The notes under the pieces: generated by a model
The model's database searches: none
What the model saw: only the letters and a program-made list of their open reading frames with translations
Told to the model about the DNA's origin: nothing
Assembly (NCBI RefSeq): GCF_006345805.1
Contig: NC_043013.1
Coordinates: 49,352,001-49,416,000 of the forward strand
DNA length: 64,000 bases
Direction of reading: 5' to 3'
DNA from: Octopus sinensis
Lineage: Eukaryota
Made by a program: the position numbers and the translations under genes
Shown here: positions 7,013-42,069 of the stretch, in pieces
Layout: every line of letters begins with the position of its first letter
Position numbering within the stretch: position 1 is the first letter of the stretch

Positions 7013-8223
7013 TTTATAGTTCATAAATGTTAGCATAGGGGAGGGAGAATTATCAAGAAGATTTCTTTTAATTCCAAAGTTGCAGCACTTTCTTATTTGT
7101 GTAATTTTTTATTAAAGAGGTAAATGAAACTAGAAATCAGGAGTCATTGGAAACTGCCACTTTGATGTCTCTAAGAAGTTGGTGGTTGCAGTGAGTGTCT
7201 TGAAATTTTGTGCTTTCTGAAGGAAAAGAAGGAATGCATGGCTATCAGTTAATAGAGCGGTTTATGAAGGCGTTACCAATGTAGCTGCATCCTGGTCCTC
7301 TCTGGCCTTTGGTATCCACTATGAAGTCTTTTCCACTTATATCTTCTGACTAACAGTGACACTACACAAGGAAAAATACAGTCAGAATGAGCATGTCAAA
7401 TCATGGTATCTTCAATGCTGGGCTGATGGCTTTAAAACAGGTGGCACATTTGGGCCTATTTGCACTTTTTTTGAAGAGTGAAATTTTCTCAATGAATTAA
7501 ACATAAATTTTTTTAAATAAATTTCAAAAAATAGGATATTGTTGATAAATAATCAAAATTTATTCCATCTTTGGCAGTACATTCATATAGCTGTCTGATT
7601 TACACTTAATTGTTATCTTTGCAGTGCTCCAGGACCAGTAATAGAAATATTCAGAATAAATGGAAACAATCAAAATAACTCTCCTTGTAACAAATACATC
7701 ATGATTCAATCAACTTCCAGTAATTTGCCAAGCAGACACATTTTCATTTCAGAACTAGCAATCTCAGGTCATAGAACTAAATGTAAAGTACAATTTACAC
7801 TTAATATAGATTTTTGAAAATAATAAAAAATAAAAAGTGGAATATGGGAATTTCTGATGTTAATGCCTCTCTGAGAGGCATTAATAACATAATTAAAGAA
7901 ATTTCAAATGGGAAACAAAACTGGATCACAGATTTATTTCTCAAAGTTACTGTATTATAAAAAAAAACTCACCATAATAAAAAATATATATTAATGAAAA
8001 TAAAATTACTTTTATCAGAATGTAATCTATAGAAAAGCAGAGAAGATAATGTTTTGATATTGCACATACCACAATGAAAAATTAAAGGGTTATTAGGATT
8101 TTATAGATTGCCATATATATAGCCAATAATTAATAAAACTAAGATTAAAGAAGTGCTTTCTTCATAACAAATGAGGTAGTTTGAAAATACACACACAAAT
8201 ACACACTTGTATGTATATATATA

Positions 8224-11519: not shown

Positions 11520-14342
11520 AATATTAGCAACTCTAAAGACAGGTTGGCCAGGTGTATATAACGCTAGCCTACTGAGACTATGCACTTCCAGCCAGAATGT
11601 TGGAATAGTCATCAATATTGAACACAAAACTGATGGTAACATTCTGAATAGTTATATATCATAACCAATAGTATATTATCTCAATAATACATACACACAC
11701 ACACACACACATATTGCATCATTTCCATTATATATTTATTTATAATAGTGTGCATAAATATAATTATATACCTGTGTATTTATATCCAGAATGTTTAAAT
11801 AAATACTATATGAATTTGCACTTTTCGTTAAATTTAATTCATTCAAAATAATAATACAGAGAAATCACAATAATTATTCTAGCTTTGCTTTTCAAAACAA
11901 AAACTAACACATTCATATTTAGCTATAAAAAATAACTTAGAATAATAAAAAATTAAATAATAATCTTTTACATAATAATACTGGTATTTTGGTGAATAAT
12001 TTTAATCTAAATATTTGAAACCAAAATTTACTTTTAACTAATATAACATACCTGAGCTATATAAACATTTTGTACACTATTTATCATCAATCTACTAAAG
12101 CATTTCAGAAAATGTTTATAGTTTAAGGAAAAGAAATAATACATTTCATTAAAATGAACAAAAATATTTGAGATTATATAAAAAAAAATTAATAAATTTG
12201 GTAAAACACTTTTGGAAAAAATTATTTTGAGACAAAAATTATTTTTCCTTAAAATAAAATACTTATGAAATATAAATCTCAGACAAAAAGAAAAAAAAAC
12301 TTTATCTACTTTAAAATCCATAATATAATCATAATAAAAATTTAAATACATATCATGTGTATGAATAAAGATTTAAAAATAATAATTTTCTTTTATATGG
12401 GAGCAATAATCTTGTAGCATCTAATTCCAGTTATTTAAATATCTGGATATCATACAATATATTCTGGATTGTATAATCATTTGTAATGCAATTAATTGCA
12501 AAATTTAAATTAAAATATCAATTTTATTTTAGAAAATCTTAATACACAACTGTTCATATAATTGGATTTAAAATTATGAAATAAAATCTTACTATGATAT
12601 TATTGTCATATACAGCATTAGATTTAATTAACTATAATAGATTATAATATCATAGCTGTTAATATTAATTAGAAAGATATTTAGTGCAATTTTCATTTTA
12701 AGGTGTAGAAAGTCAAATGAAATTTTGCTGAGATCATTTATATTTGTTATTTTTTAAATACTGCTATAGAATGTTTTAGATAATTAAATATACCTCTACT
12801 CAAAAGGATATATATAAAAAAAGATTAAATATTAATTTAATTTTTTAAAAAAACTTTACATGATTTTTTTTTATTCTTTTGTTTTTATATGGCTTTACAG
12901 TTATATGTTTATGTAAGAATTTGTATTAAAATGTATTTTGTGAAATGACCAGTTAAATGTAGCTCTTTTAACAAAAAATGTGTCTGCATGTGGCATGACA
13001 ATGTGCTTGATCACATGCACAACAGCAAGACAAGGCAGATTGAGAGTGGCATAGCTCCAACCTAATAGTCAAATTCCACATGCAACAATGCAGTAAAAAA
13101 TAATGAAAATAACTGTGCAGACCAGAAATATAAATAACAATTAAAATAGGTTTTTAAAAATTATATGAAATGGTATAACAACAGATTATGATTTAAATAT
13201 TATTGTTTGAAGAAAGTAAATTATTAGGACCAAAAGTTAAAATAAAAGTTAGTGCAGGATACAAATAAAAACTGATGGTCACAAGCATTCATGATGTCTA
13301 AAAGTGTAAAGTAGGAACACACAACATTTGTAAAGGCCACAGTTATTGAAACAGTGGCATCCTTATTTTAAATTTTGACTAGTTCTCTTTAGAAAAGGTA
13401 CAGAAGGAAAGTCAATTTCTAAACTATTGAAAACAGGTATTAAAAATTAAATTCAAATCAATGATTGCTAAATAATTTTCAAGTCCCAAACTTTAAAGTA
13501 TAAATATCTTATAAATAAAAGATATTGTAAACTAATAAAAAGGAATAAGACTTCTTAATGACTTTTGTTTTCATTTATGAAACTCCAGTTAACTTCTTTG
13601 CTTAGAAACATCACTAAGTTAATTTTGGTATTTGAATGAATGTAGAGTAATCATGACTTGAACAACATTTAGGCTCTCTATTGCTTTCCTTTTACACATT
13701 TTTGCTTTCTTTTTTTTCTTTTCTTTTTACTAATATGATTATTCAATAATGATTTCTGAAGACAAAATATAGTATTGACAAAACTGAACATTTTTCTGAA
13801 CTTTAATAAATATTAAATAATTCGTATGTTTAATAGCAGTCTGAATACCAGTTTCTATACTAGTTGACAGCAAGATGAGCACTGTCCATTTCAGAAAATT
13901 TTAATGAAATTTTCTCTGGATTGTCAGTGGTTTTCAAAATGAAAAATCTTCAACATTCTTCAAGAGATCAATGTTTCTAATAGAAATCCATTATAATTTT
14001 AACTCTATTCTTGATTTCAAATTGTTTTATAAAAATAAGTTATATTTGTAAAGGTATGTTTGCTTTGATAGGGCTTGTGTCTTTATTGCACATGCAGTGC
14101 TGTCGTCAATTGACAATCAATCTACTAGAAAAAGGAATGCATTGCAAAAAGGCACAAACTTGGTTCAAAAGATGTACATCAGCTGATGTTAGTCCTTAGA
14201 AGGAAAGAACAAGCTGAAATGTTCACAACCCCCATTATTTAACAATTTGTCATAATTGCACAAGATCAAAGCCATAACCTATTAAAGAAAAGAAAAAATG
14301 ATATTTTAAAAGATGATAGAATTTATGTTCATATATATATAT

Positions 14343-16648: not shown

Positions 16649-19600
16649 CACACACGCATATATATATGTACATATGCTTACAACAGTACAAAGTTAGACT
16701 TGAAGGTTTATATATGTAATATAGTCAAATAGGTAAGTACTTAATTTGAATTTATCTAATATAAGGTGAGAGTACCTAGTTCTATCCTATTTTGACTCCT
16801 TGGTATGACTTTACTCCCTCATCATAAGGCATAATGCAGCAAACTAGCTTAAGAGAAAAAAATATTGTAAAAGAGCTGGTGCTTCTAAGGCGAAGTGCAA
16901 TGCATAGATTTTCATTGGCTCATGAATTATCACAGGATCTCATTTAACCAATTGAATTTCTTGAATACACAAGCAGAGAATATTTCATGTTTCAATTTCC
17001 ATAAATAAGTATAAAATATCAAAATACATTTTATGTAAAATACAATTACAAAAATTATAATTAGAGAAAAATGTGAAAATTTGAAAGTGAATACCTATTT
17101 CATTCCTTAATATAAATAATAAAAGTACATAATGGAAAGTTAACCAATAAAATTATTTTCTGAGATTTTGATAGAAGAATCTATTTCAGAAGACACAAAA
17201 AAGATATTCAGGAACAGTGTTTTGCACAATTTACATTGATAGCTGTACATTTGTGGTGATTTACAACTCACATTTAGTTTTTGTTTTATGTTTATTAAGC
17301 ATTATGTGATCATTAAAATGGAGAGAAAACATTTTGATAGTCTTTCAAAGCCAAATTTTGTTTCCATTAGTGAGGGATCTTTATAGAAGTTTAATGATGA
17401 AAGACAAAAAAAAAAACTTACAGGCAAAAAATATAATGTAAATATATGTAGTTAGTATTGATAACTAATTTTTTTTATTAGTCTTCAACATAATTATCAT
17501 TGTTATCATCCTCTTCACCAACATCACGACTACTACCACAACCATCAGCATCATTACTATCATCAACCTGATAAACATTTGAATAGACTATTTATCCCAA
17601 CTTGAAGAATATAATATTTATAGTTTTGTTTTTGTTTTTTTTTTGACAGCTTTTTTTGTTTTTTGTTGCTCTTTTCTTTTTCTTTTTTTTTTCTTTTTTT
17701 CTGTATTTATTTATTGATTTACTTTTTTTTTGTAAAGTGATATTTTCTGTTCTGGGAAAACAAAACATATCTTAACATAATCTGTCATTGAAAATTGATA
17801 TTTCTGTCCATCACGTTACTTGTAGTTTTATTTCCAGCAATAACAATTTCTTTAATTAATACTTTAACTCTGTATTTCTCTGCCAAATGGAGCCAATAAA
17901 TAACCAAAGATCACTCTCATAAGACAGTGCAAAAATAATGTTATTAACAACAATAAATTTAAAAGAAAACTGAATACTCTCAGAGTAGTAATATTACATA
18001 CTATTCTGAAATGTAAATTATGAAGTAAATGGACAACACTAAAAAGGAGAACATACAACAAAATATATGAACTGTAATTTAATGAGAAAGAGAATAAAAA
18101 TGTTGATAGACTGCAATTTAAAAAATAATGCAATTGTTGCTGAGCACACATTTTTGTTAAGTATTAATGAGAGCTGAGCCCATTCATAATGGTAATTTTT
18201 TTGTCAAACTGAATATTTACTACTTCTATAGCTACTACATGGATTTTTGCATATAGTACAAACAATATTAACTAAATTTAACAATGCAGACAAGAAATGC
18301 AACAGACAACACTTGACATAACAAAATATCACAAAGATATCACACAAAGGTATCACAATTAGAAAGCAATAAGACAAAATAAAAGTGATAAAACTTTTTA
18401 AAACTCAGAAGTCTTAATTTTTTTTCCTTGCTACCGTTAGATTGAATAGATTTATTGCTTACATGAATCAACACATTTCAAGTGTGCGATATCAAATTTT
18501 AAGTTGATAATTATTATAGAAATTCTAAAATGTATAAAATAGTCAATATGATCTACTTGGGATAAATTATTTGCAAAATTCATACATCAAAATAACAAAT
18601 ACATCCCATATTTGGCACAAAGATAAAAAAATAATCTTCTCAATATTTTATTTATAATCTTTCTTGTTTTATAACATCCATTCTTAACAACCATACTGAT
18701 AATTTATTTTTGAAACAAATTTTTACAAGAAAGAATTTATACATTTTTAAGGAAGACAGAATGGAAAAATAAGTTGAGCAAATGTTCAAATTTTAAACTA
18801 CTACTATCAGATAAATAAGAAGACTTTTGAAGAGTAAAAGAATTTATTTTAATCATTCTTTACCAAGAAGAACCAACTAGAAATTTACAAACCACACAAC
18901 CATTAGGCAACTACAGTGCAGATAGTTCAAATGGATATAAACCTAAATTTTTAAATAATATATTCCTTGAAGATTATAGAATTCAAAAGAAATACCTCAG
19001 TTTTGATTGTTCACATGTAGCTTCTTCTAAGAGATCAAAAGGACTGTGGTGCACCATGCTTTATCAAACGTAAGTTGTCAAATTTACACAGGTAACTAAT
19101 AGTTTTAACAATAGAAATATTTATAATCAATATTTTTTAAAGATAAGTATTGGCCCATGACTCCAATAATTAATTAATTTTCAAACTAAATATATTTTGA
19201 GCTGAAATATTATTTTATGTTAAAAAAGATAAAAGTTTTTTTGTTTACATTCACAATATTATGAAATGGTGATTGATATCAAGGTGTAGTTACAAGTGCT
19301 TTACAGGAATGCTTTTTGAGAAGACAAAAAACAAAATATTATTGACAGTTAATTTACATCCCTTTATTTACAACAAGGAATGAAATGGTATGTTTACCAT
19401 TTTGAATTTATTTTATTTCATACTACTAAATCTGAAAATATCATCTAGTACTATCAAATTAATTTTGCAAAAACTACAAAAATTAAAGAAATAGTACAAA
19501 ATTTGCTCCTCCCATCAAATTATAATATAAAAATAATACTGTATTTATCAGTATCATAAATTCAATTTTAGTTTACAGTTATTCATCAAATAGATTCAAT

Positions 19601-21335: not shown

Positions 21336-22664
21336 TATATTTACATATATATATACATACACATATGCTCTGTGTGTGTGTGTATGTGCATGTATGTATT
21401 CATATGTATGTAAATATGTGTATGTAAATAAAGTATTTATGAATAACTATAGAGCAACATATAGGTAAACTAATTTCTATATAATTATATTTAGGACATA
21501 TGTGATGAACTATGATATAAGATGCTTTGATTTCTGATATTAATCTTGCAATAAAAATAATGTATGTTTTAGAAGCAAACATTTTTTACTATAATGAACT
21601 ACTTCTATTACAACATGTATTATTACATGATGCAAATTTTCTAAAATATTTGATACTATAAAATAGCAAGCAAGGCAAACTCTGGTCTGTGTTTACACAT
21701 AAGAAACTGCACATATGTAGAGGTTAATTTTATAGATAATGTGTGTGTGAGTGGTGTGTATGTGTGTATATGTTTGTACACAATATATATTTATGTATTT
21801 AAGTAGATATCAATATTTATGAACACTTGTCATCATAATACACCTCATTTGCTACTTATAATTGTATAAGGTTTCTCCGAGTAACTAGTAACAAAAATGG
21901 GATTTAGATTATCAATATAGGAACATTTTAAATTCTAGTTCTGTTCATTCGTCAATTTGATTTTTTCATAATAAACACCACAGATTTTTTTTATATAAAA
22001 TTATCAAAGTAGTACCTCAGAAAATAAAATTAAAATATAAAGTATTGGGGACTTAAGTTTTACAATTGCAAATTTGATTGAAAATTTATTACTTTACTTT
22101 ATTTATTACTTTATTTTATTTATCACTTTATTTATATCATTACCTAAAGGTATATACATGGATACATCTGCATAAATGTAGATGTATCATGTATTCAGAT
22201 AAGTTCATCAGTTTTAATAACAACTCAGTTACTATATGAATTGATATATTATCTAAAAGGTTAGAAAGGTAAGTTGATAAGTATGCAAACATGCAAATCA
22301 CATACACACACACTAGCACACAGAGACTTAAGTATTTAGATGAGTGAAATATTGGCCAACATTAAGGTTGAGCACTCCACTCTAACTGCAGGATATTTTA
22401 AGAAATAGGTGCAACTAAACTTCTACTTGATAGGGTAAACATTCCAACATCACCACAAATTTTGGTTAGTGCTCAAACGCAGTAGCTCACACAGAACACA
22501 GTGGAAAATAGTTGTAGGTAAACACAATGATTAACTAAATGTACACATGATCAAGCACGTGAAAATGTATGAAATAAGACATAAACATTATGAATAACAG
22601 TAGATCAGATTGCTGTAGTGGCTTTTCGTGATCTCGATATTTAAATGGTCCAAACGTCATCTAC
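11520..22664 (-). other. Putative long 3' UTR or constrained downstream region of the PCBP gene
   Basis: Lies directly downstream of the exon B stop and is nearly devoid of the SINEs that are dense on both sides. The 3' end is undetermined. Confidence 0.35.
20893..21005 (-). ncRNA. Degenerate type I minimal hammerhead ribozyme (Penelope-type)
   Basis: AAACC-CUGAAG(U)-GACUCUACCG...CGGGCUAGAAUC-GAAA-UAUAU-GUA-GGUUU. Stems I and II and the palindromic stem III are present, with two deviations from consensus. Confidence 0.5.
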
Positions 22665-22701
22665 CTAGCGAATTCCCATTCCACAAACTTCTGTTGTTAT
22701 C
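22665..22701 (-). CDS. PCBP3: Alternative last coding exon B of the same PCBP gene: (R)ITTEVCGMGIR*
   Basis: Acceptor ttttgtgtctttgtAG|G ATA ACA ACA GAA GTT TGT GGA ATG GGA ATT CGC TAG in phase 2. The peptide aligns with recalled vertebrate PCBP C-termini (PCBP3 RLTSEVTGMGTL, PCBP1 RLSSEKGMGCS). Confidence 0.78.
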
Positions 22702-23127
22702 CTACAAAGACACAAAATCACGCTTCAGGCTGCAGGGCAACTGCAGAGAGAATTTCTTTGGAATAGAATCATAAGTGACATGAAAGTAAAAAGTAAAAGA
22801 AAAATGGACATCAACAAGGAAAACAAATACCAGGGTATCTCCACAAATTTGTTGTTCAGTCAGTTTAAATAGATATGAGATATTAAAATGATCCATAAAT
22901 TTTTGTTAAAATGGAGATAGCTCTAATTAAAATAAGTTTTGTATGTTGATTATATACTGTAAAAATGTAATTTATTCTTTAAAAACTCATGCCAACTGAG
23001 TAAGTACTAGACAAATTCACCAGTTTAAAATGTGCAAACTACATGCTAATATAATATATTTCAATATTCATTTCTTTTATTGAAATATCAATGTTACAAA
23101 AACTATGAAATAAAAATAGTGAATAAC

Positions 23128-23137
23128 GATGATGATG

Positions 23138-23204
<67 letters not shown>

Positions 23205-23351
23205 TGATAATAATAATGATGATGATGATGATGACGATGGCGATGATGACAATGGCGATGATGATGATGAGGAGGATAATAATAACAACAACAATAACAA
23301 CAACAATAACAACAGCAACAATAAATAATAATAATAATAATAATAATAATG

Positions 23352-23402
<51 letters not shown>

Positions 23403-23405
23403 TAA
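23128..23405. repeat. Compound (AAT)n/(GAT)n/(AAC)n microsatellite between exons A and B
   Basis: Directly visible. Confidence 0.95.
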
Positions 23406-23916
23406 CAAAAATGGTAGCCGTGGTAACAATATCAATCAAAATGATAAACTAAAAAGCATAATAATCAAATTTATTAGGTGATTAAACATAATGGAAGTAA
23501 ATAAATGAATATTGAAAATGCATTGGTATAAAGGTTGGTAAGGAAAAGTACTCTGACTGACAACATAATTGGAATGTTGGAGATGGGCCTACATTGTTAA
23601 AATGTCCATTGTAGGTAAACCAAAACATGATATCTTATTATTATCACTTCATTCCATCATTATTTCACTTTTTACACATTTACAGAAAAAAATTTTTGGC
23701 ATCTTGCACATATCTTTCTACAAAATATAGACCTCAGCTAGTAAATTTGTGGATATTAGACAAATAACATCCTCTTCAATTACTGTAATCTTTTCCATTT
23801 TTCTTCTATAATGTCTGTCAATAAATATAGTTGTCTTCACACATAGGAAAATCTTGGATGACTCCATTTCAAGTGAACTAGAAAGTCTTAGTAGAAGTAG
23901 ATGTGGTATTTCAACA

Positions 23917-24169
23917 TTAGTAAGGTGCAAATTTTGCTCGTTCCACTTTCTTCAATGCACTATTAGCCGTCACCCCAACCCGCATTTTGGCCGTAAAATG
24001 TTTGCGATCATTATTCAGGTCGAATACACCTGGGACATTTAAATACGGCATTGGTTTCACCAACTGATTCAGCGGGATGGCCAAGGGATGATGGGACTGA
24101 ACAGAGGTCAAGGACGTGGTTGTTGGGGTTGAGGCCGGGTCAAGGGTCAAATTCTTATGCATTTCCATG
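23917..24169 (-). CDS. PCBP3: Alternative last coding exon A of a poly(rC)-binding protein (PCBP3/mub family): (S)MEMHKNLTLDP...KKVERAKFAPY*
   Basis: Acceptor ctccctctcccatttttctacAG|C ATG GAA (AG at 24170-24171) in phase 2. 253 nt open to TAA at 23917-23919. GC-richer non-repetitive island. SMEMHK resembles the post-KH3 SVELQK tail recalled for insect mub. Same phase as exon B. Confidence 0.8.
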
Positions 24170-26514
24170 CTGTAGAAAAATGGGAGAGGGAGATCAGTAT
24201 TAGACAAAGACAAAACGAAGTGCAACTACACAGGACACAAATGTTAGTAACTACATAAGAAACATACATCTGCAATAGACACCAGATGATTGGTCAGCAG
24301 CAGCAGCAGTACAGAATATGATGCAACATGATCAAGTGGGGTTTAAAAGATAAGCACAAGTAAATTAAAGTTGAAATAAAATAAGATGTTCTATGAAAAA
24401 TAACGGCCAGTGGTGTTCACATCAAGAAAGTATTTAAAACATGTTGATAGGAGGATAGAACAAAAACAAAAGCAACATAAGAATTTAGTAAGAAATTAAA
24501 TCAATTTAGCACTTGGAACGGGAATACCATCCGTGCTGAAGCTTGGAAAGTCAAACAAAACTTAAGAGCTTCTTGTGGGAAGTACAAATGATGTATAAAA
24601 ATAAACTGAAGAACAGTAATTTAGCTAAAGTCAAGATTTTAACACATAATATCTAAAATATTAAATGTAAGTACTAAATGACTTTTTATAATCATTACGG
24701 TAGAATAGTGAGATGTGAAGTCAATTTACTTTTTAATCAGTTATCTTAATTTCATTATGGTTCAAATATATGTACATGAATGTAAAATCGATGAATTTAT
24801 TTACATTACTTTCCACAAAAAAATTTTAAGTTTTGCAAGGTGTAACCATAAATATATGAAACACAGTGACCTGGAATGAATAGATGTGAAATGAAAAGGT
24901 AGCATAATCTAAGGTATGGTTAGGGTTAATAGCCATTTAACAGACAGCCAGCCATCTAGAGAGGGCCACATGCATTCAACTACCTTCCTGCTTCTTTTAT
25001 TAAGATGATTTTAATTGATATACAAGTAGCCCTGTCTTTGGCCAACTCTCTCAAAGAGCCATAAAAGCAATGTTAGAGTACCTACTATACCATGCTCTAG
25101 GCCAAATCTAGGAAAAAGTCAATTTTGCTGCCAAAAGCAACACCTTTTGATACTCTCTCAGCTTTAAAAGCCATTTGCCCTCCTTCTGCTTATATTTTAC
25201 TTCATTCAAAATTTTAATAGTATTGAAGAGGATGAAAAAAGTGATATAATATAGTTTTTTTTTTCCAAAAAAGTATAGCCAAATGAACTAAATAGTCTTC
25301 CGTTTTTTACAGAATTTTATTTCTTATAATTTGTATCTTATATAGATAGATATTTGTGACAAGTATACTACTAGGTAATGTATTATAGAGAGAATAAACA
25401 TTTTTAAAAATTAGAAGACTGATTTGGTAATAATTTTTAAGTGTAAGTATTGATTTTGTTTTAATTTGAAAGAGGATTCATTAAAATAATTTTCCATGCT
25501 TTTTCTGAAGGGAATTTAAAAGAAATTAAGAAATGATAATTGCCTATATTTTGCTTCTTTGAAAAATAAAGCAAAGTTTGAAAAAGCACATAACTATCAA
25601 TGAGATCCAACTTGTCAAAAAATACTATAACAACTGTTAATAAAAATTTTTCAAAATAATAAAAATATACTTTATCAAATGATTTATAGTTTGATACACA
25701 CACACATACACACACAAACACGCATGTATCTGTTGAAACAACAAAAATATTTCAATTTGTTTTTTTGTTTTTAGCATAAAAATTTATTTTAAGTAATGTA
25801 ATTATTGTAAAGCTTAACTGATAAATGAAGTGAAAATATGTTTCATAAATTCCTATTAACATAATAGACGTTTATTGTAGCCTCAGTATCACCAAGGGGT
25901 CATCACTGCCCAATAGTCACAAGCAAAACTTCTTCTATGCCACTCTGGAATAAGTACTACAGCACAGGACAAATGTTTGTTGACTCACCAGGAAGCATAG
26001 CTTGATGGTGCATACACCTACACAATGGGCAATCATTTTTCTTCAGTTTCTATTTGTTAAAAGTTTGCACTTGTACACACAAATGCACAACATCCTTCTG
26101 TATAGGATTGGGGTGGCGTTATTCTATCATTATGTGTTTCAATATAGCTGGGAGTAGTTTCAAAATAGCTGGGAGTAGTTCCTCCTCTCACAAATGTTGT
26201 GGCCACCTAAAATATTTGCTCAGACATCTCGTTGGGTGTGACATGCATGAAAAACACTAGGAGACAATATACACTGGAGTAAATCAAATCAGTGGCACTT
26301 TGATTTAGCAAACCCGGAAAGGTGGTGGGCAAAGTTGACTTTGATGGGATATGAACACAGAAAGTAGAACAAGTGAGAAATAAACAGGACAATTCAAATG
26401 CTTCTTTTATGCGAGCAGTAATACTTGAGTACATAAAATAAAATTACACAAAAACTGTACAATATTTTTAAAATTTCATACATAAATATATGCATTTTGA
26501 ATTTATGTGTATAT

Positions 26515-26660
26515 TAGGAAAGGCATCCAGTCATAGAAACCATGCCAAAACAGACAACAGAACTTGGCATAACCTTCTGGGCTTGCTAGCTCTTGTCAAA
26601 CCATCCAACCCATGCCAGATGGAAAGCAGACGTTAAATGATGATGATGATGATGATAATG
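26515..26660 (+). mobile_element. 3' fragment of repeat family C
   Basis: ttaggaaaggcatccag...gacgttaaatgatgatgat. Confidence 0.65.
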
Positions 26661-26913
26661 CTGTATATATACAAACACACACACATACACATACATGCAT
26701 ACATACATATATCAATACATATATGTACGTAAGGTTTCAAACACCTGAGTTGTACATCTCCTAAATGCCCATGGAACATTAAGTCTTGTGGAGCTGAGTC
26801 AAATTTGCTTCCACCCTTATAATGTAGGATTATAATCTAGGCCTGGGCTGACTAAAGCTCAGAGAGTGGATTTGGTAGACAGTAACTATCTACACACACA
26901 CACACACGCACAC

Positions 26914-26994
<81 letters not shown>

Positions 26995-27150
26995 CATAGA
27001 TAGATAGATAGATGGATGGATGGATGGATGGATGATGGATGGATGGATGGATGGATGGATAGATAGATAGATAGATAGATAGAGATAAATAGATAGATGG
27101 ATAGATAGATAAATAGATAGATAGATAGATAGATAGATAAATAGATAGAC
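26914..27150. repeat. (AGAT)n/(GGAT)n tetranucleotide microsatellite
   Basis: Directly visible. Confidence 0.95.
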
Positions 27151-27549
27151 AGTATGTGTCTGGTGGTGTGAACCCTTGTCATGGCATTACATGATAGATG
27201 TAAATGAGCCTCATCATCACCATAAAAACAATGTTTCCATTTCCAGTCTTCTGTGGAAGACTGGAAATGGGAAACAATACCTAGTGGAAAACAGATGAGG
27301 ACCGGCAACAGAAAGGGCATCTGGTCATATGAAATCTGCCAGAACAAATTCTGTTTAACCCATGGCAAAGTGGATGTTAAATGAAAATGGTGATCATATC
27401 ATCAAACTGTCCAAACCATGGTGGTATGGTTGGGCAGTTTGACAGGACCCGGTGGATCAGAAGAAGGCGTCATACTTCACTGTCTACTCTGGTATAGTTT
27501 CTATGCTCATTTTAATGCCAGCCACTTTACAAAGTATACTTGATGCTTT

Positions 27550-27785
27550 TTCTTATTTCTTTACTGCCCACAGGGGGCTAAACACAGGGGACAAACAAGG
27601 ACAGGCAAAGGGATTAAGTCGATTACATCGACCCCAGTGCGTAACTGGTACTTAATTTATCGACCCCGAAAGGATGAAAGGCAAAGTTGACCTTGGCGGA
27701 ATTTGAACTCAGAACGTAAAGACAGACGAAAAACTGCTAAGTAGTTTGCCCGGCGTGCTAACGTTTCTGCCAGCTCACCGCCTTT
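27550..27785 (-). mobile_element. Full-length SINE family B
   Basis: Head ggcggtgagctggcagaaacgttagc, B box gagttcaaattcc, Meta/MESC-like core. Confidence 0.88.
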
Positions 27786-27799
27786 TCTTGTGGCACCAA

Positions 27800-28730
27800 T
27801 ATTAGTGAAGCCACAAGACTAGGGTCCACATTAATTAAGTGGGATTACAGTGGAAAGGGAGGTAGCTTTATATTAGGTGATGAAAGGTTAAAGTATGAAG
27901 CAATGCAACAGAACAGGTTTCTCGCTGCTGAAGAAATACACGGCTGCTGACATTATACAACAGTGAGTGGGAGTGATTGATTTGGAACAGGAAAGAGAAA
28001 TATAAATGATGCCAGGAGGTGGGGGGGAGACACCAAGGGAGGAGAAAAGGGATGCAGGCTGGACAGAAGTGGTAAAAGTGTGAGGAAAAAGGGAAGTAGG
28101 AAAGGATGGTAAGAAATAGAGGAGGGTGTGAATATACTGAATGAGGAACAAAGGACAAGGTGGGGGGAATTTCTATGAGTTGAAGGGAAGAAAGGGGAAA
28201 GTAAATGATGACTAGAGATCGAAAAACGTATTGGGGTGGATGTAGTGAATGCTGGAGGAGTAATCAATGATGCATATAAGTTGGGGGGTAGGTGCAGATT
28301 GGCAGTGCAGGAGAGTGAAGAGTATCAGGATAGAGAGAAATATATGATATGTGGATGGGTCGGTTGCAAGAATGTGAATAGAGAGAAAGACTTAGTGCAT
28401 GGGTAGAGAGAGAAATGTAATGATAAAGGTAAATTAACAGGGAATGGTTCAGTAGAGAGGAAGAGAGAGAGAGGATAGCTAGCATATAAGAGTGGAGTGA
28501 TCAATGTAAAAAGTGAATGGAGAGGGACAAAGTAAGGATGAGGGATGGAAGTCCATTGGAATGGTCCCAGGTAGTGAGATAGATAACTGATATCACGGAA
28601 AGAAATGATAAGATATGTAGTTCTGCCCTCATTTGATCATGGAAATGAAACACTACAGTCGGCAGGTGATGGAGAGATCAGTAATAGAGAATAAGAATGT
28701 AGAAGGAAGATTTAATGAGAAAATTAGGTG
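27800..28730. repeat. Unclassified purine-rich interspersed repeat, related to 43370-44350
   Basis: Shared segments such as aacagaacaggtttctcgctgctga versus aacagaataggtttcttgctgatga, and ggggtggatgtagtgaatg. Confidence 0.45.
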
Positions 28731-28789
28731 AGAGGCCCATTTGTAAATATATAGAGACCATGCTTGCAGAACCTCAGATTCAGCAAGAT

Positions 28790-30050
28790 GGGTGTCATCT
28801 AGAGTGACACATTGCCAAACATTCTGGTCTTTTGATATCTCCTTCATGAGAGTCTTAAATCAGCCCTCACTACTTCTTCCCTTGTCTGCCTCTCTCTCTC
28901 TGGGTCTTCCTCTTCCACAAGTTCCATCAATATTTAGCAATTAGCACTTCTTTATACAACTGTTCTCATTCATATGCATTGCAGGACCATATCAATGCAG
29001 TCCTCTCTCTTGCACACTACAACTGATTCCTCTAACATGCTAGTTTCATTTCTTTGTAAAGATATATCCTCTGTATTCATAGCCCATGTTGCAATACCTT
29101 GTAGCATTGCTCTTCATACACATGCATCATACAATCTGCCTTTCACTCTGAGAAAGAAAATCCTTGTTGTCAACACAGGAAACATTTCTCTGAACTTCCT
29201 CCGGCTTTTTCTTATCCTAGCAACTATTTTATAAAAACTTTCACCAAAGCTACTTAGGGCACCAAGGTAACAAAAGCTATCTACTACCTCTTGGGATTCT
29301 CTTGGGCATTCAAGAAAATCTATTTCCTGTGCATTCTTAATGTTTATTGCTCCTGTGCATCCACCATAAAGGTTAAATGTAAACTTTGTGTCTTAAAGCC
29401 TGGAGGATTATGATGAATAGGAGACAGAGAACTAAGCTTAGACTACCTGCATATTATATTCATGGCTATACTTATTGACACTTATCTTATTGACAGCATG
29501 GCACAAACAAGCCATTCATCCACCCCCTAACCTTCTCAGTAACACTAGATTATACAATAAGGGATTCTATCAAAGCTTTTCTCCAGGATGAGTACAGCAG
29601 CTTACTTTAGCCAAGTACTTTTCCTGCAGTTGCTTTACCAGGAAAAGGCATCAGCAATACATTCCCCTCATGTAACTCTTTCTCTAATTAATTGAGCTAT
29701 GACTTCTCAATATCTTTCATAACCTAGTCCAGCAATTTAATGCTTATTGTAAGTCCCTTTCTCTAAGGTATATCCTTTATTCTTGTAACAGTTAGCTATA
29801 ATGTAAGTCATTGGATATGACACTTTCCTGCACAACCTGATCGACAAGATGGGTAATTAGACTGTATCCTACACCACCAGATATTTTAAGCATTTGGTAG
29901 TAATTACTGGTAATACAGGGGTTATTTCTGCGTTTGAACCTCAATTGTTTTATCTATCACCCTGCTGTCAACAAGAATGACTGGTTTCTCAGCTGCATCC
30001 ACGCTGGGAAGACCTTCTTCCTTCAACACATTCTTCACATTTAATAACGG
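28790..30050 (-). mobile_element. Degenerate RTE-clade LINE (RT and 3' region)
   Basis: Fragments such as RLYDACV and EISKDQNVWQCVTL resemble RTE ORF C-termini. Related to 54100-55995. Multiple stops. Confidence 0.6.
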
Positions 30051-30062
30051 AAATTGTAGCTG

Positions 30063-30350
30063 TGATACCAGTGCCGGTGGCACATAAGAGAACCATCCGA
30101 ATGTGGCTGTTGCCAGCACTGCTCCGACTGGCCTCCATGCCGGTGGCACATAAAAAGCACCATCTCATCGTAGCCGTTGCCAGCCTCGTCTGGCACGTAA
30201 AAAGCACCCACTACACTCACGGAGTGGTTGGCGTTAGGAAGGGCATCCAGCCGTAGAAGCACTGCCAGATCAGACTGGGCCTGGTGCAGCCTTCTGGCTT
30301 CCCAAACCCCAGTTGAACCGTCCAACCCATGCTGATAATGATGATGATGA
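30063..30350 (+). mobile_element. Repeat family C copy
   Basis: Homologous to 568-990. Confidence 0.75.
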
Positions 30351-31929
30351 TGGGAACCACTTTCATGTCTCTTTCTTTTCAGAATTACTAAGAGCAAATG
30401 TACCATTATCTGTATGGACTTCTGCTCCACATCTCAGTTCTCTCTCATACACTGTCTTGCAATTCAGAACACCTCATGCTTCTGCTCTTCACACTGTATA
30501 ACTTGTATAACTTTGATAAATCTCCTTTCTGCTTCTTCCTTTGCTAAATAACACTATCGCCTAGCTTCTCTTCCAGCTATCTAGTATAATTTCCTGCTAC
30601 CCCCATTCTTCCAATTTTTCCAAGCCTGTCTCTCCCCTGTTCTACCACCTATATATCATCCTTGGAACCACAGATTTGGTCTGTCATTCTCCATGGGTTG
30701 TCCTGTTCTACTCCCAATTGTCATTTATGATACACATCTGAATTACCTCCAAGTAAATTGTTTCAGTTAGAACTCTTCTAAACTTCTAATTGTCCAATGA
30801 ATATTTAACCTTCCATATCTTCCTCTCCTGACTCGTTTGTGTCTTTGAATCCTTCTAGTTCTAAGTCACGGACCACTAACCTTCATAGGATTGCACCTTC
30901 AACGTGGACGAACATTGCATTTACAATTTTCTGCGGAGAATGAAGTGCATTTGGCTTTTTGGTGCTCACCAGATTAGTAGGTAATCAAGTGACCGGCTCA
31001 TTCTTGAAGTTCATGTTGCAGATCATTAAGTCATTTATTTATGATCAATAACACTAATATGTGTGTGTTTGCGTGTGTGTGTTTGTGTGTGTGTGTTTGC
31101 ATGCGTGAGTGTGTGTGTGCATGTGCATGTGTGCGCATGTGTAGATGTACATATTGATGCTTGCATGTTTATTTCTATATCTAAATTATTAAGCAACAAA
31201 TATGCTTAAAGAAAAATAACACAAAAACAAACAAAATATATTTTAATAATCTGTCTTCAAATATTTGCATATTTTAATACTTTCCTTTAGAAAATGAAAA
31301 TGTAAATTTCAGATGGAAAAAGGAAATTGAAGGCATGGATCAGAGGCATATTTTGTTTTGAGTGACTAATTCAATTTCAATGCACGAGTTAGCTACCTTA
31401 AAACATTGAATATATATATACAAAAGTATAATTATTTTTTTTTAAATTACAACCTATTTAAAAATATTTCCTACTACATATGAATTAAAGTTACTAATTA
31501 ATCTATCACCAAAGTAAGTACCAAATACACAAATGTGATGGTCTTTCATAAATGCTTTATATCCATATCTTAGTTTAAATACTTGATTTAAATGTACCAA
31601 ATTATTTCTTCATTATTTCTTCTCATACTGTTTCATCTTAATAAGATTTGTGTATCTGTTTGTGTATTTGTATTTAAATTCATATATACATACACACACA
31701 CACATATATTTATATACATATGTGTGTATATAAATACATATATATATAAAGAGAGAGAGAGAGAGGGAGATAGACAGACAGATAAACATTTACTTTTATA
31801 ACATTTACTTTTAAAATATATCAATGTTTACCATAGAACAAAATTTAGAAAATTGGACAAAACAGAGAACCCAATTGAAAAAAAATAAAAAGTAAAAAGA
31901 AAAAAAAGAGAAAAAAACCAAAACTATTC

Positions 31930-32930
31930 ACCACCTTGTGTTGAAAAGTTGGGGACACTGGGAAACCTCTCTAATGGTTATTGAGGTATGCCAGCATGCT
32001 GACAGCATTGCCATAGGTGATGACGAGGCTGATGTGCTGGAACAGCCATGTGCCTTCACGAGCTTCATCAGTCACCTCTGCAAGGTGAATTGCCAGTGAA
32101 GACAGGAATCTCGCAGTTAGTGATCAGAGCCCACCAAACGTCTCAAGCGCCACAGGATGGAAAATGTAGTTGGCTGACAGATTGCGGTATTTCAGGATTT
32201 TGAGATCTCACCCTGACCGCAGTGTCCAAGATGTAAGAAGAAGCAAAGGAGTCGCTAACTGTGACATCCCAGACAAGGCATCTGCCTTCCGATGAGGGGC
32301 ACAAAGTGAGGCCATCAGGTCTCTTCCCATCGCATTTGGATAATCCAGATGGTTCCAAGATGGAGGGGATGTTTGCTCAAGCCAAGCTCCTCATGAGTAT
32401 CAGGTTCAACTCCGTATGATGTGTGAAGCAACCAACATTCAGGTGGCAAGAAAGGCCATGAAGGCCTGTGGAGTCGAGGAGCCTGCCACAATGACAGATC
32501 AAATCAGTGCATACATCAGCTCCCACTCTGAGGGCAATGGAGACACGAAGTTCATCCAAGCTGAATAGGCCACCAACATTAGCAAAGGGATGGCATCAAT
32601 CCAGTCACCTGAGTAGTTGGCGCTAACAGATAGTAGGCGGCACATTGAAAGCTGGTCCGACTGGATGAGGAGGGAGTCGAAGGTGGCCTTCGAAATTATG
32701 TTGTCCCAAGCTTTCTGACTCTGAAAGTCCTCGACCTTCTCAGGAGCAGACAAACCCAATTCCCTCCAGTGTTGGAGAGCTTCATCCAACTCCCAGTTGG
32801 AACTGGTCCATATTAGAGAGGAGAGGATGCTGCTCACTAGGGTGGAGCAGGTGTGGCTGGAGGAAAGGAAGCAGTGGAGGGAGAGGGATGGACCCTTATG
32901 AAGACCAAGACCTCCAAATCAGTGCATCTT
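31930..32930 (-). mobile_element. CRE-clade-like non-LTR retrotransposon 3' fragment (zinc knuckle plus restriction-like endonuclease), frameshifted
   Basis: CHCGRLLDSTGLHGLSC followed by EPSGLSKCDGKRPDGLTL...CLVWDVTVSD. Confidence 0.75.
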
Positions 32931-34721
32931 GATCACGGGATATAGGAGAGAGTCTGACATTGACTATGCATTCATGTAATTCAAAGATTAGGTTGTTGAA
33001 GCTTGGAGGCACTAAAAGATCACTTAATACTTTTCAGTATAATACAATATTCATTTACTTCAACATGAAAGAGACTATATCTATCTATAATCTATCTATA
33101 ACATAATGGAGAAAGTTGCTTGTTAATTATCTATAATATAATGGAGAAAGTAATTATTAAAGCCTTGACCGTCTGGAAATTTTTTTAATACAATTCATGT
33201 TCCAAGAAATTTCCTGTAATTTCAATTTCTGAAGTTTATTGAATATTTGAACAAGAAGTTTTCCTCTAATTTAAATATTCATTGCATTCACTGCAGAGTA
33301 GATTTCATAAACAATATTAACTCGTTGCAGGCGAAATTTTCCATTTTCATTTGCAACAGTCTCTCACTCTCTCTCTCTCGCCTCTATTTTCATTAATGAT
33401 AATTTCATATATATATTCATTTCAATTCTATTCTATATATGTTATGTAAAAAATTATTTATTGAATGAATGAATGCTATTAGACAAAATAGCTGTATAAC
33501 TTTGGGGCTTCCATGATATAGTATACTAGTATAATTTTTTTTTTTAAATTAAGAAGTGATTTTGTTGGCATGGTTATTTGGAAAACTGTAAACATACATA
33601 CAGGCAAACACATGCACATATGTGATTGTATATACCATATATACTCGAATAATAGTTGATCTCATATAAAAGTCGACACCCTGTTTTAGGCCCAAAAATT
33701 GGGAATTTTCCATAGATCCCATATGAAAGTCGACCCTAGTATTTCACGAACAATAGGACAACATTTGTGGGTCAAGGTACCATATTATCCTGTACGTAGA
33801 AATAAAACTGTTACAAAATTGTGTGGCTACCTTACTGTAGCCTGCTCTACAGGTGGAATGCTTGGTGCTTATAATGGAATGCTTGGTGCTTATAGTAAAA
33901 CACCATTTAGTAGCGAGCACTACACACCTGTTGATGAGTGCTACATCACCATTACTAAAATGTATGCACAGGGTATGCTGCAAGCCTGCATACATCCTCA
34001 AGCACAATAAACACGTGTCATACACTTGTTGTCTACATGGTGAGAAACGTGCTTCACAGAGAGTATTATTGGCGAACACTTGCAAATGCCACTGTCTAAA
34101 TTCATACAAAGGTTAATTATTTGACCAATCAGTCAGTCACCTGATTTGTCAGAGTCTTTGTCACATGTGACCTAATCAATTAACACACACTCATTACTCC
34201 AGGTTGGAGTTGCTGGACTCCAAACTTTTATTAGTGGATTTCTACTATTTGGAAAGTGTATGTGAGTAAGAGTGTGTATTTGATTGGTGGGAAGTGCGAT
34301 GTGCAGGGCAGTTGGTGAACGTGTGAATTACAGGTATTTGATATTTTAATGGTTATTGTCTTTGTAATTAGACACTGTGTGTGTGTGTCTGTGTGTGTGT
34401 GTCTGTGTGTGTGTGCAAATATGTATGTGTGTGTATGCCTGCATGTTTATATGTGCACACACGCACACAAGCCTTCTTGTTCCTTACTTTTTGTATTGTT
34501 ATATATATACACACACCCATATCATCCATTTTTTTTGGTGATGCATATACACATGCTGCTGATGTCTACACACTCACTCAACACGATGCATCACTACAAC
34601 AGATACAAGTCATAAATTTAAATTTAAAAAAGTAAACAAATATAGAAGAAATTACACGGACCCACAACATGAACACACAGATCTAAAATTTCACCATCAA
34701 ATATAGGGACATGTGCATGAA

Positions 34722-34753
<32 letters not shown>

Positions 34754-34917
34754 AGTGGGTGAATGGTAGTATGTATGGGTGAATGGTAGCATATATATGT
34801 ATTCATACATTTAGCATAACAGAGACATGGCAATCTTAATTTAATGTTCTTTCAGTTGTGTTCAATTAGGATAAAGATATACACATATACTAGAAGTATA
34901 TGTGTATATATATATAT

Positions 34918-35050
34918 TGCCTTTCATCCTTTCGGGGTCGATAAATTAAGTACCAGTTACGCACTGGGGTCAATATAAACGACTTAATCCGTTTGTCTGT
35001 CCTTGTTTATCCCCTCTGTGTTTAGCCCCTTGTGGGTAGTAAAGAAATAA
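34918..35050 (+). mobile_element. 3' part of SINE family B
   Basis: gcctttcatcctttcggggtcgataaattaagtaccag...gtaaagaaata. Confidence 0.85.
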
Positions 35051-35319
35051 ATATATATATATATAAATGGAGTTAAACGCAGGTGTTATTCAATTTCTTT
35101 TACTTCCAACACGTGTTTCGAAGATATCACTGGTATTATTCCAAAGGAATAAAATGATGTAAAACAATGTAATCTTTTCTACCTTTAAAAACAAGGTTAC
35201 GCCCCTTTTACTTGTGTGATTTTTTGCTACCCTGGTAAATATTTATCTATTTTTTCCATGTTAATTGTTAACAAGGGAAAAATACACACATTTATTTGTA
35301 TTTGTAAACAGTGACATGA

Positions 35320-35750
35320 ATTATGAGTGGCCAAACCGATTTGCATAGACAGAAGAGTAACAATCTATGAGCCTGCTACACAACTGGACAGTGGTCATAA
35401 TGCATAAGAAAAGATTGTGGTAAACTCTGGATATTGGAGAGTGTGTGCAGAGAGGGTAACCCATTTGAAGACAAGAAGGATGGAAGCCTGATCTGAACTC
35501 CTGGAAGTGCTTCAAGCCAAAGAAAACATTTTTTCCTATCTGATGAGAGTGGGTGGTGAAATGTGGGCATATCTTTACAATCCAGAAACAAAGACTCAAT
35601 CCATTGGTGGGGGTCACACAACTTTTCCGTGGACTAAGAAGTTCAAGAGTCAGCAACTAGCACAAAAAATCATTGTGACTGAGGGGCTTTTTTGGGTGGG
35701 GGGTGAGGAGTGACTAGGATATCAATTTCCAGCACAGAGGATGGACATTA
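35320..35750 (+). mobile_element. Degenerate mariner transposase fragment
   Basis: DRRVTIYE, GYWRVCAERVTH (WVP motif) and GGEMWAYLYNPETKTQS (TGDExW motif). Confidence 0.7.
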
Positions 35751-35889
35751 AAAGATGAATAAGATGATGTTGATGATAAAGATGATATATATCAAATTCA
35801 CTTGCAAGACATTAGATGTATGTATGTATGTATGTATGTACGTATGTATGTGTGTATGTATGCTTGTAGGCATGTATGTATACGTGTAA

Positions 35890-35950
<61 letters not shown>

Positions 35951-35999
35951 TATAATTACACACACACACACACACATGCATATAGAAAGATACAATTAT

Positions 36000-36334
36000 G
36001 GAGACTCACATATAGAACTTCAAGTTTCTATGTCAACGATATGCTCATCACTGAACTTTTTCAGCTATCGATTAAAAGCACAAAAACCCCTACACCACAC
36101 GTGGAAAGAAAAATCCCCTCCGGGCATTACAAGAACAACAACTAATTTTTTGTTTAATAGTCACTACTTCGTGAAAACCCTATTATGTGTAGGTTGAAAT
36201 AATTATAAAGTGATAATTAAAGGAAATGAATATAGTAAGTAAATGAATAAATATATAAATAATGAAAAAAAATCACACGGCTTCTTAGGAATAAAACATG
36301 AGAAGATGGGATATTGAGGTTAAAATAAGCTAAC

Positions 36335-36375
<41 letters not shown>

Positions 36376-37264
36376 AAGGGAGAGAGAGAGGGGAGGGGAG
36401 GGAGAGAGAGGGGAGGGGAGGGAGAGAGAGGGGGAGAGAGAGAGGGAGAGAGAGAGAGGCCTTTCCAAGAAACCTTATGAAAACTTTTTTTAAATATGAA
36501 AAATTGACACTGGCAGTTGAAAATTTGAAAGTTTAAATTAAAAGTAATAGGATATTGAAAACTTTCAAAATTATGAAAGGAAAATCAAATAAAATTAAAA
36601 TTGAAATAAAAATTGAGAATAAAAAAGTTAAAAAGCAAAATTGAATTTTTTTTTAAGTGTTAAGTAATTAAAAATTAGACATTAAAATTAAATTAAAATT
36701 AAATCAAAAATTTCCTTGGAAAAGTAAATTGTAACAATTTTTTTTTTTAATTTGAAATTAAAATATTTTTAACTTATGTCAAGAAATATTTTTAAATTTA
36801 AGAATTCAGGAACTATTTTTATCTAAGCAAAACATAAACATTTTTTAATTGTTTAATATCTATTTATCTTTAATGTTCAATTTCTTGATTTTTATTTTTT
36901 TAATTGTAAATTGCTATTTTATTGGGGTCACTAGTGTTGGACAGCATAAATTAAGTTTTAAACTTTTAATTTTTCAATTTTAGGATTTTTTTAATCTTTC
37001 AATTTTTATCTGTTAACTTTTTTAATTGTTTAATAGTATTTTTTGCTTATTTTTCAATTTTACTTTTAATCCAATTTAAAATTTTCAATTTTGATTTTAA
37101 ATTTTTATTCTCAATTTTCATTTCAATTTTGATTTATTTACATTTCCCTTCATAAGTTTACTTTTAGTTTGAATTTTTTAAATTTCAATTTCCAGTTGTA
37201 AATTTTAGTGTCAACTTTTTATATTTTTCATTTTAAGCCTTTAACCTATGAGGTTTCTTGAAAG

Positions 37265-37310
<46 letters not shown>

Positions 37311-37413
37311 GTATGTGTGTATATGTATGTATATATATATATATATATATACATATCTATATACACATACATACATATATATATATATATATATGCATAT
37401 ATACGTATGTATG

Positions 37414-37445
<32 letters not shown>

Positions 37446-37549
37446 TTGTATATATATATTACATATATATGTATATATATATACATATATATGTATATAT
37501 ATACATATATATGTATATATATATCATATATATGTATAATATATACATA

Positions 37550-37589
<40 letters not shown>

Positions 37590-37867
37590 CATATATATAC
37601 ATATATACATACATATATATACATATATACTATATACATATATATATAACATATATACATATATACATACATATATATACATATATACATATATATATAT
37701 ATACATATATATACATATATACATATATATATATACATACATATATACATATATATATATACATACATATATATATACATACATATATATATATATATAT
37801 ATACATATATACATATATATATACATACATATACATATATATATATATACATATATACATATATATA

Positions 37868-37907
<40 letters not shown>

Positions 37908-38285
37908 TCTATATATATATATATTAGCTTCCAAGGTTCATGATACTATTTTAACATCAGTATCCTATTTTTCAAAGTTTCATTTGCAAGAAGCTGTGAT
38001 CTATTCTTCATTCATTTACATATTTATATCATTTAATTTATTCCTTCATAAATATTTCAACCAACAGATAATGGGGTTTTAGACATGTTCAGGCAATCAA
38101 GCCAAGAAGTTTTTCCTTTGTAAAATCTAATGCCCAAAGGGGATGTTTTCTTTCCATGGGCAGTGCAGATTTATTCATGCTTGTAATTGATGATGATAAG
38201 CGCACCAGGATTATGACAGCTGAAGAGGTGTGGTGATGATCATATTGTTGACATAGAAACTTGAAGTTCTGTAAGTGAGTCTCTA
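36000..38285. repeat. ~2.3 kb degenerate fold-back (inverted repeat) element
   Basis: 36000-36335 is the reverse complement of 37925-38285 (gagactcac...agaacttcaagtttctatgtcaac). 36460-36650 is the reverse complement of ~37080-37265. Confidence 0.75.
37268..37923. repeat. Long compound (GT)n/(TA)n/(TACA)n microsatellite
   Basis: Directly visible. Confidence 0.95.
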
Positions 38286-38295
38286 GCAATACACA

Positions 38296-38355
<60 letters not shown>

Positions 38356-38770
38356 TGTAAGTGGAACTGACATGAGGAAACTGATGTAGAAGATCATGTG
38401 TGTGTGTGTGTGCACGCATGCAAATGTATGTGAATGTTGACATCCTAGTCTTTAATTGCTACTGCTTGAGTAAATGAACAGTATGCTTGTATGCATGTAT
38501 GCATCGGTGCATGTATATATATGTATGCATGTGTAGTTAAACATATTACGTTATTATCTAAATGTAACCTGCTATTTGAGCCCTTACTCAGAGTGATCTT
38601 CAATTGAAGATTACCTGAAGAGTATTTCTAGTAAGAAACTCTGAGTAATAAGCTATACAAAATTTAAAATATATTCACACTCTACAAACTTAATATGAGT
38701 AATTTTTTTAGTTTTTACTAGCCATATAAAGCTATCAGTGCTCTCCTCTCTCTCTCCCTATCTATCTATC

Positions 38771-38839
<69 letters not shown>

Positions 38840-42028: not shown

Positions 42029-42069
<41 letters not shown>

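What the first reader, a model, noticed from the sequence alone, without database searches (positions are those of the whole stretch)
22665..24169. Two alternative last exons may switch a PCBP between PY-NLS-bearing and vertebrate-type C-termini
Seen: two phase-2 acceptors 1.5 kb apart on the minus strand give an 84-aa tail ending KKVERAKFAPY (exon A) or a 12-aa tail RITTEVCGMGIR (exon B). Established: a basic stretch plus R-X2-5-PY is the transportin-1 (karyopherin beta2) PY-NLS, and PCBP1-3 end in RL(S/T)SE..GMG. Inference: last-exon choice switches nuclear versus cytoplasmic localisation and the 3' UTR. The 37-nt exon B is invisible to the ORF track and easily missed in annotation.
Basis: partly seen in the sequence, partly recalled or inferred. 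Interest (0 to 1): 0.72.

Follow-up and report, generated by a model that had tools for sequence, protein, structure and literature searches.

The report
Ancient two-tail splice choice in PCBP
The octopus poly(C)-binding protein gene carries two splice acceptors that end the protein with either a long tail bearing a possible nuclear-import motif or a 12-residue tail; the same pair is annotated in other molluscs, a brachiopod, an insect, a sea star, a shark and a sturgeon, so the choice is likely as old as bilaterian animals, but its effect on localisation is untested.

Summary
The upstream exon lies 7.7 kb beyond the window, encodes the end of KH3 of the only PCBP gene found in this genome and ends in phase 2. 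Both tails are already RefSeq isoforms of Octopus, so exon B is not missed. Neither tail is specially 'vertebrate': A and B isoforms with the same protein body occur in 14 named species, from molluscs to an insect, a sea star, a shark and a sturgeon. Tail A resembles the vertebrate PCBP4-type end. Probable-RNA contigs run unspliced across acceptor B, so B probably sits inside A's 3' UTR. Tail A meets the loose PY-NLS rules (terminal R/K-x2-5-PY, basic, predicted disordered) but not the strict published patterns. A review reports PCBP4 cytoplasmic and PCBP1/2 nuclear through internal signals, the reverse of the proposed switch. Verdict: a real, deeply conserved splice choice that I did not find described; the import role is plausible but open.

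The parts
24170..64000 (-). Window part of the last intron (about 47.5 kb to A). It comes from the shared phase-2 donor AG|GTGAGT of the KH3 exon, which lies outside the window at G000:C17:49423693-49423812
24170..24210 (-). Acceptor A with a C-rich polypyrimidine tract (10 C of 25; two CCC runs)
23917..24169 (-). Coding part of exon A: 84-aa tail (S-MEMHK…KKVERAKFAPY); the first residues finish the last KH3 helix, the rest is predicted disordered
22702..23916 (-). Proximal 3' UTR of isoform A, skipped in isoform B; holds an ATT/ATC microsatellite (about 23130-23410) and AATAAA hexamers at 23475, 23081 and 22976
   Evidence: only 22200-23100 was laid
22725..22740 (-). Tandem acceptor B', 39 nt upstream of B, giving tail SCPAA (O. 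sinensis X7); seen in no other species fetched
22665..22701 (-). Coding part of exon B: 12-aa tail RITTEVCGMGIR
22200..22664 (-). 3' UTR downstream of B, probably shared by both isoforms; AATAAA cluster just beyond at 22132-22090
45260..45275 (-). Minor RefSeq last acceptor, tail RNIFS (Octopus only in my set)
17864..17879 (-). Minor RefSeq last acceptor, tail REIQS (Octopus only in my set)
14266..14278 (-). Minor RefSeq last acceptor, tail RLWL (Octopus only in my set)
7337..7361 (-). Minor RefSeq last acceptor, tail SVTVSQKI (Octopus only in my set)
7171..7216 (-). Minor RefSeq last acceptor, tail RKHKISRHSLQPPTS (Octopus only in my set)

Best explanation
The octopus PCBP gene has one phase-2 donor after its KH3 exon and two conserved acceptors, a pair likely inherited from the bilaterian ancestor, and the long tail A likely adds a transportin-binding PY-type import signal that would bias, not dictate, nuclear entry of that isoform. 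Shown: gene structure, annotation of both isoforms, and conservation of both tails and of their pairing. Predicted: both tails complete the last KH3 helix alike, so RNA binding would be unchanged, and the rest of A is disordered. Inferred: B lies in A's 3' UTR, so choosing B also drops about 1.2 kb of UTR; vertebrate paralogs sorted the pair (PCBP2 and a non-mammalian PCBP3-like gene both tails, PCBP3 B, PCBP4 A, on small samples). Untested: transportin binding and any change in localisation.
For: Structure; one locus only for a KH2 exon and for tail A; best PDB match human PCBP2 KH1-2, E 1e-62, against 1e-16 for hnRNP K. Pairing: hand-picked A/B pairs have identical bodies in 13 of 14 named species and 415/416 in Lingula. 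Homology of A: a profile of 24 mollusc tails scores 16 of 16 non-mollusc tails above all 200 shuffles; without the last five residues, 15 of 16 are reached by at most 4 of 200 shuffles. Motif: 107 of 121 distinct long tails end in PY, 107 of those 107 fit R/K/H-x2-5-PY, and 105 of 107 are net basic over the last 30 residues, against 1 of 48 other tails ending in PY (biased, because two searches used A tails; among the 150 library representatives 20 of 31 long tails end in PY). Disorder: pLDDT below 50 over residues 341-372 and 374-414; helix 320-338 in both models. Literature: PCBP4's long C-terminus is described as holding a nuclear import and an export signal that the short variant alphaCP-4a lacks (PMC3017617, passages); QKI-5 is a KH-protein precedent (PMC4824116, passages).
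Against: The octopus tail fits neither the basic nor the hydrophobic PY-NLS search pattern of PMC2408616; only 10 and 2 of 107 tails do. A review (PMC9701828, passages; the primary paper is not held) says that PCBP4 and PCBP3 are cytoplasmic and that PCBP1/2 are nuclear through internal NLS I and II, so B-type proteins can be nuclear and the A-type paralog is reported cytoplasmic. No joint into B appeared in 4 of 4 runs laid (contigs drop rare forms). The PCBP4-like tail loses its signal without the last five residues (49 of 200 shuffles). No human or mouse tail sequence was retrieved.
Confidence: 0.5

Rival explanations
1. The splice pair is real and ancient, but tail A is an effector or partner-binding module (its terminal K-F-x-P-Y and its internal P-L-x-x-L-x-K-P and T-x-K stretches bind something other than transportin), and localisation is set by signals in the shared body.
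For: Reported cytoplasmic PCBP4 and internal NLSs of PCBP1/2; the strict PY-NLS patterns fail; F at position -4 is kept in 99 of 107 tails and K at -5 in 104 of 107, tighter than the loose PY-NLS consensus needs; alphaCP-4 arrests cells in G2-M and alphaCP-4a does not; the QKI-7 tail binds a poly(A) polymerase, a precedent for effector tails.
Against: Terminal position, net basic charge and predicted disorder are all kept across phyla and match the three physical PY-NLS rules; the published patterns are stated to be too narrow for known cargoes.
Confidence: 0.33
2. One reading: A is nuclear, B is cytoplasmic, an on/off switch as in QKI-5 against QKI-7.
For: QKI precedent; motif conservation.
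Against: PCBP1 and PCBP2 are reported mainly nuclear through internal signals, and the PCBP2 proteins retrieved include B-type ends.
Confidence: 0.12
3. The choice matters mainly at the RNA level (3' UTR length, stability or transport), and B in octopus is one of many leaky acceptors.
For: RefSeq lists at least seven more last acceptors; no joint at B in the contigs laid.
Against: B's peptide is 12 of 12 identical in an annelid and 8-11 of 12 in the four gastropods and bivalves tested, while none of the six minor tails tested has a relative outside Octopus in my set.
Confidence: 0.05

Closest known systems
Vertebrate PCBP2/3/4 (alphaCP, hnRNP E) and insect PCBP (mub)
   Same: Three KH domains, the same junction after KH3 (Ser or Cys for A, Arg for B), and homologous tails; shark, sturgeon and Bradysia genes have both isoforms.
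   Different: One gene in octopus against several paralogs. In a quick tree the PCBP3 rows (6) were all B and the PCBP4 rows (3) all A-type at the junction (small samples). The papers I read treat the long end as a PCBP4 feature. The name mub for the insect gene is recalled.
QKI-5 / QKI-6 / QKI-7
   Same: A KH protein whose isoforms differ only at the C-terminus; one tail has an NLS (PMC4824116).
   Different: STAR family with one KH domain; the localisation switch is shown for QKI but not here; no homology is claimed.
PCBP4 alphaCP-4 / alphaCP-4a
   Same: A long tail described with import and export signals against a short distinct tail, with different cell-cycle effects (PMC3017617).
   Different: Whether alphaCP-4a uses a B-homologous acceptor was not tested; its sequence was not retrieved.
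PY-NLS cargoes of transportin-1 (Kap beta2)
   Same: C-terminal R/K/H-x2-5-PY, basic, predicted disordered.
   Different: No match to the published N-terminal basic or hydrophobic epitope patterns; no binding data.

Membership tests
PCBP (alphaCP) subfamily | Three KH domains, KH1-2 close together and KH3 after a linker | tested here: met
   Exons mapped; models
PCBP (alphaCP) subfamily | Closer to PCBP1/2 than to hnRNP K or Nova | tested here: met
   PDB: PCBP2 E 1e-62; hnRNP K and Nova about 1e-16
PCBP (alphaCP) subfamily | Binds poly(C) | not testable with these tools
   Bench assay
Alternative terminal acceptor pair | A shared donor in the same phase, with both joined forms on record | tested here: met
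   B-form ORFs on Logan contigs of at most 1.7 kb from another cephalopod
Alternative terminal acceptor pair | Junction reads in this species | tested here: inconclusive
Separate last exons with their own poly(A) sites | Transcripts of A end before B | tested here: inconclusive
   Single contigs span 22200-23100 in 3 of 4 runs and 22200-22966 in the fourth, all across acceptor B; AATAAA sites between A and B exist; RNA status is a guess
PY-NLS | C-terminal R/K/H-x2-5-PY | tested here: met
   Octopus R-x4-PY; 107 of 107 PY-ending tails
PY-NLS | Overall basic character | tested here: met
   Net +6 over the last 30 residues; positive in 105 of 107
PY-NLS | Disordered segment of 30 residues or more | tested here: met
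   Predicted only: pLDDT below 50 over 341-372 and 374-414
PY-NLS | N-terminal basic or hydrophobic epitope by the published search patterns | tested here: not met
   Octopus fits neither; 10 and 2 of 107. The paper calls such patterns too narrow.
PY-NLS | RanGTP-sensitive binding to transportin-1 | not testable with these tools
   Bench assay; no transportin sequence was on hand for a complex prediction

The most novel reading that the evidence does not exclude
PCBP carries a splice switch kept since the bilaterian ancestor: an older short tail (B-like ends occur even in a sponge) against a long tail with an unrecognised transportin signal. The protein promotes its own long form by binding the C-rich tract of acceptor A, a feedback loop on its nuclear pool. 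Vertebrate PCBP3 and PCBP4 froze the two states, and an overlooked PY-tailed PCBP2 isoform still makes the choice.
Probability: 0.12. Interest if true: 0.78.

Novelty: new member of a known kind. Interest (0 to 1): 0.5.

Why it matters
Alternative splicing events shared by protostomes and deuterostomes are uncommon (own knowledge). This one affects a family central to splicing, mRNA stability and iron handling. It recasts the long PCBP4 tail as one arm of an ancestral choice, and it points to PY-tailed isoforms of PCBP2 and of a non-mammalian PCBP3-like gene that the papers I saw do not discuss. The last 55 residues of that gene's tail are 87-100% identical from sharks to birds among the 120 best hits. 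A two-residue mutation tests the import claim.

Tried and rejected
No KH exon inside the window. No Pfam family for tail A; no Rfam match in 5000-30000; the ESM Atlas gave no usable hit for the fish PCBP2 A tail. Three A>G differences on the + strand are T>C on the transcript strand, so they are not A-to-I editing. A metagenome scan gave 1 locus from 395 candidates (L012, unnamed animal): the same intron positions and acceptor A, but no B-like exon in the 1.65 kb held downstream. Importin cargo tables: PCBP2 ranks 90 and 1026 for Trn-1 and PCBP1 305 and 116 (columns read by matching two files); PCBP3 and PCBP4 are absent (PMC5305215 supplements); PCBP2 is not significant in PMC5740495 supplements; neither resolves isoforms. 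The mub protein-trap passage (PMC4197698) is not isoform-resolved. The search for mammalian PCBP2 A forms was crowded out: 120 of 252 hits were listed, none named as mammalian. The sponge B-like tail is not significant beyond its first residues (171 of 2000 shuffles). The careful tree did not finish; only the quick tree was read. No complex prediction was run. No earlier findings. Papers not held.

Full report
Observation. On the minus strand, acceptor A at 24169 opens a frame of 83 residues plus stop after a one-base split codon, and acceptor B at 22701 opens 37 nt that read RITTEVCGMGIR. No KH exon lies in the window. The window is G000:C17:49352001-49416000, and KH matches lie just beyond it on the same strand. 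The contig length equals that listed for Octopus sinensis RefSeq proteins. The exon at C17:49423693-49423812 encodes the second half of KH3 and ends in AG|GTGAGT, phase 2. The other coding exons map over about 50 kb upstream. A KH2 exon and tail A each match one place in the genome. The best solved relative is human PCBP2.

Annotation. Tail A ends RefSeq PCBP3 isoforms of O. bimaculoides and O. sinensis. Tail B ends XP_036366454.1 and XP_052829781.1. At least seven further ends are annotated; six map uniquely to 45275, 22740, 17879, 14278, 7361 and 7216, and one (RK) is ambiguous. None of the six has a relative outside Octopus among the proteins fetched. That RefSeq XP models usually rest on RNA-seq introns is my own knowledge. 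B-joined proteins are also called on Logan contigs of at most 1.7 kb; their body is identical to that of an unnamed A-form (P0088, P0330, P0006) and about 96-98% identical to octopus, so probably another cephalopod. Such short contigs are most likely spliced transcripts.

Transcript layout. Twenty of 24 listed runs hold at least half the words of 22300-24300, and none is on record as RNA. Four were laid on 22200-23100: one contig spans the whole stretch in three runs and 22200-22966 in the fourth, with no joint or loose end at B. If these are RNA, transcripts pass through B unspliced. B is then an alternative acceptor inside A's 3' UTR, and its use would remove 1,215 nt of UTR rather than swap the UTR. 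The contigs give no measure of B use.

Conservation. I picked pairs by hand from species seen to have both tails. Bodies are identical in Octopus sinensis, three Haliotis, Patella, three scallops, Mytilus, Patiria, Bradysia, Scyliorhinus and Acipenser, and 415/416 in Lingula. For oysters, frogs, Styela and Priapulus I saw A without B, but listings were capped. A mollusc-only profile of tail A scores 16 of 16 non-mollusc tails above 200 shuffles each; without the terminal five residues, 8 are reached by none, 7 by 1-4, and the PCBP4-like tail by 49 of 200. For B, 14 of 16 tails are reached by at most 6 of 2000 shuffles, a rotifer tail by 12 and the sponge tail by 171; these were chosen for resemblance, so the test is conditional. 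A quick tree of 35 bodies groups fish and bird PCBP2 with both tails (support 100), six PCBP3 rows with B (92) and three PCBP4 rows with the A-type junction (100). The non-mammalian PCBP3-like rows, with both tails, are unresolved. So tail A is no mollusc novelty, and B is not the only vertebrate type.

Structure. In models of both isoforms the last KH3 helix runs 320-338 and so takes in the first residues of either tail; beyond 340, tail A has pLDDT mostly below 50. RNA binding is therefore predicted to be the same in both.

PY-NLS test. PMC2408616 (passages) gives the rules: disorder, basic character, an N-terminal basic or hydrophobic epitope, and R/K/H-x2-5-PY. Of 525 stored proteins 427 had the KH3-end anchor, giving 193 distinct tails; 121 are long and start with S or C; 107 end in PY. 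All 107 fit the C-terminal motif (92 with R), 105 are net basic, 10 fit the basic pattern and 2 the hydrophobic one; the octopus tail fits neither. The 14 long tails without PY include apparent mis-predictions and divergent forms; I did not check them one by one. The set is enriched for A tails by my queries; among 150 library representatives 20 of 31 long tails end in PY.

Literature. PMC9701828 (passages) reports PCBP1/2 nuclear through two internal NLSs and PCBP3/4 cytoplasmic; the primary paper was not held, so tags and variants are unknown. PMC3017617 (passages) describes the long PCBP4 end as holding import and export signals that alphaCP-4a lacks. Cargo tables (supplement rows of PMC5305215 and PMC5740495) do not resolve isoforms. 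PMC4824116 (passages) gives the QKI precedent. Passages of PMC11288931, PMC2889901, PMC4197698, PMC11450717 and PMC3674313 added nothing decisive. Nine searches turned up no paper on a conserved A/B acceptor pair or on a PY-NLS in PCBPs. I read only listings for most hits, the library lacks most subscription papers, and bioRxiv supplements were closed, so this is weak evidence of novelty.

Possible autoregulation. Acceptor A has the most C-rich tract (10 of 25) and the only CCC runs among 19 acceptors of the gene; 4 of 92 pyrimidine-rich YAG sites on this strand, A included, are as C-rich. Mammalian PCBPs enhance exons behind C-rich tracts (PMC4797308, passages). In L012 the A tract is also 10 of 25 C, but without CCC, and another acceptor there is richer (14 of 25). 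This is a lead only.

Verdict. The splice pair and its deep conservation are well supported (about 0.9). A transportin signal in tail A is about even odds. A clean nuclear/cytoplasmic switch is unlikely (about 0.12). Both isoforms are in automatic annotation; what appears new is their pairing across bilaterians. Interest 0.5.

Noticed in passing
P0224, P0231 (library representatives): Unnamed PCBP relatives with only two KH domains still end in R-R-[FY]-x-P-Y, so the terminal motif can outlast KH3. That they are nematode proteins is my guess.
   Followed up: no
L002:5664-5748 and L002:2203-2221 (C17 about 49429.7 kb and 49426.2 kb): Two internal alternative acceptors add 28 and 6 residues to the KH2-KH3 linker in RefSeq isoforms.
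   Followed up: partly
L007:46-69: A 24-nt micro-exon encodes EVGSIIGK of the KH1 GXXG region.
   Followed up: no
L004:3588-3614: A partial copy of the acceptor and first nine codons of the KH2a exon lies about 660 nt downstream of that exon.
   Followed up: no
window 22331, 22374, 22898: A>G differences on the + strand in contigs of other runs; the wrong direction for A-to-I editing of this transcript.
   Followed up: yes
P0343-P0461: A PCBP3-like gene listed for birds, turtles, lizards, amphibians, coelacanth, gar, sturgeon and sharks has a nearly invariant A tail; no mammal was named among the 120 rows listed.
   Followed up: partly
P0011, P0012, P0013: Gene models of Octopus vulgaris and cuttlefish leave exon A at the MRVG codons and lose the PY end; these may be prediction errors or a cryptic donor.
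   Followed up: no
L012:2106-2425: An unnamed animal with a compact gene has the same intron positions and the same first seven bases of exon A.
   Followed up: partly
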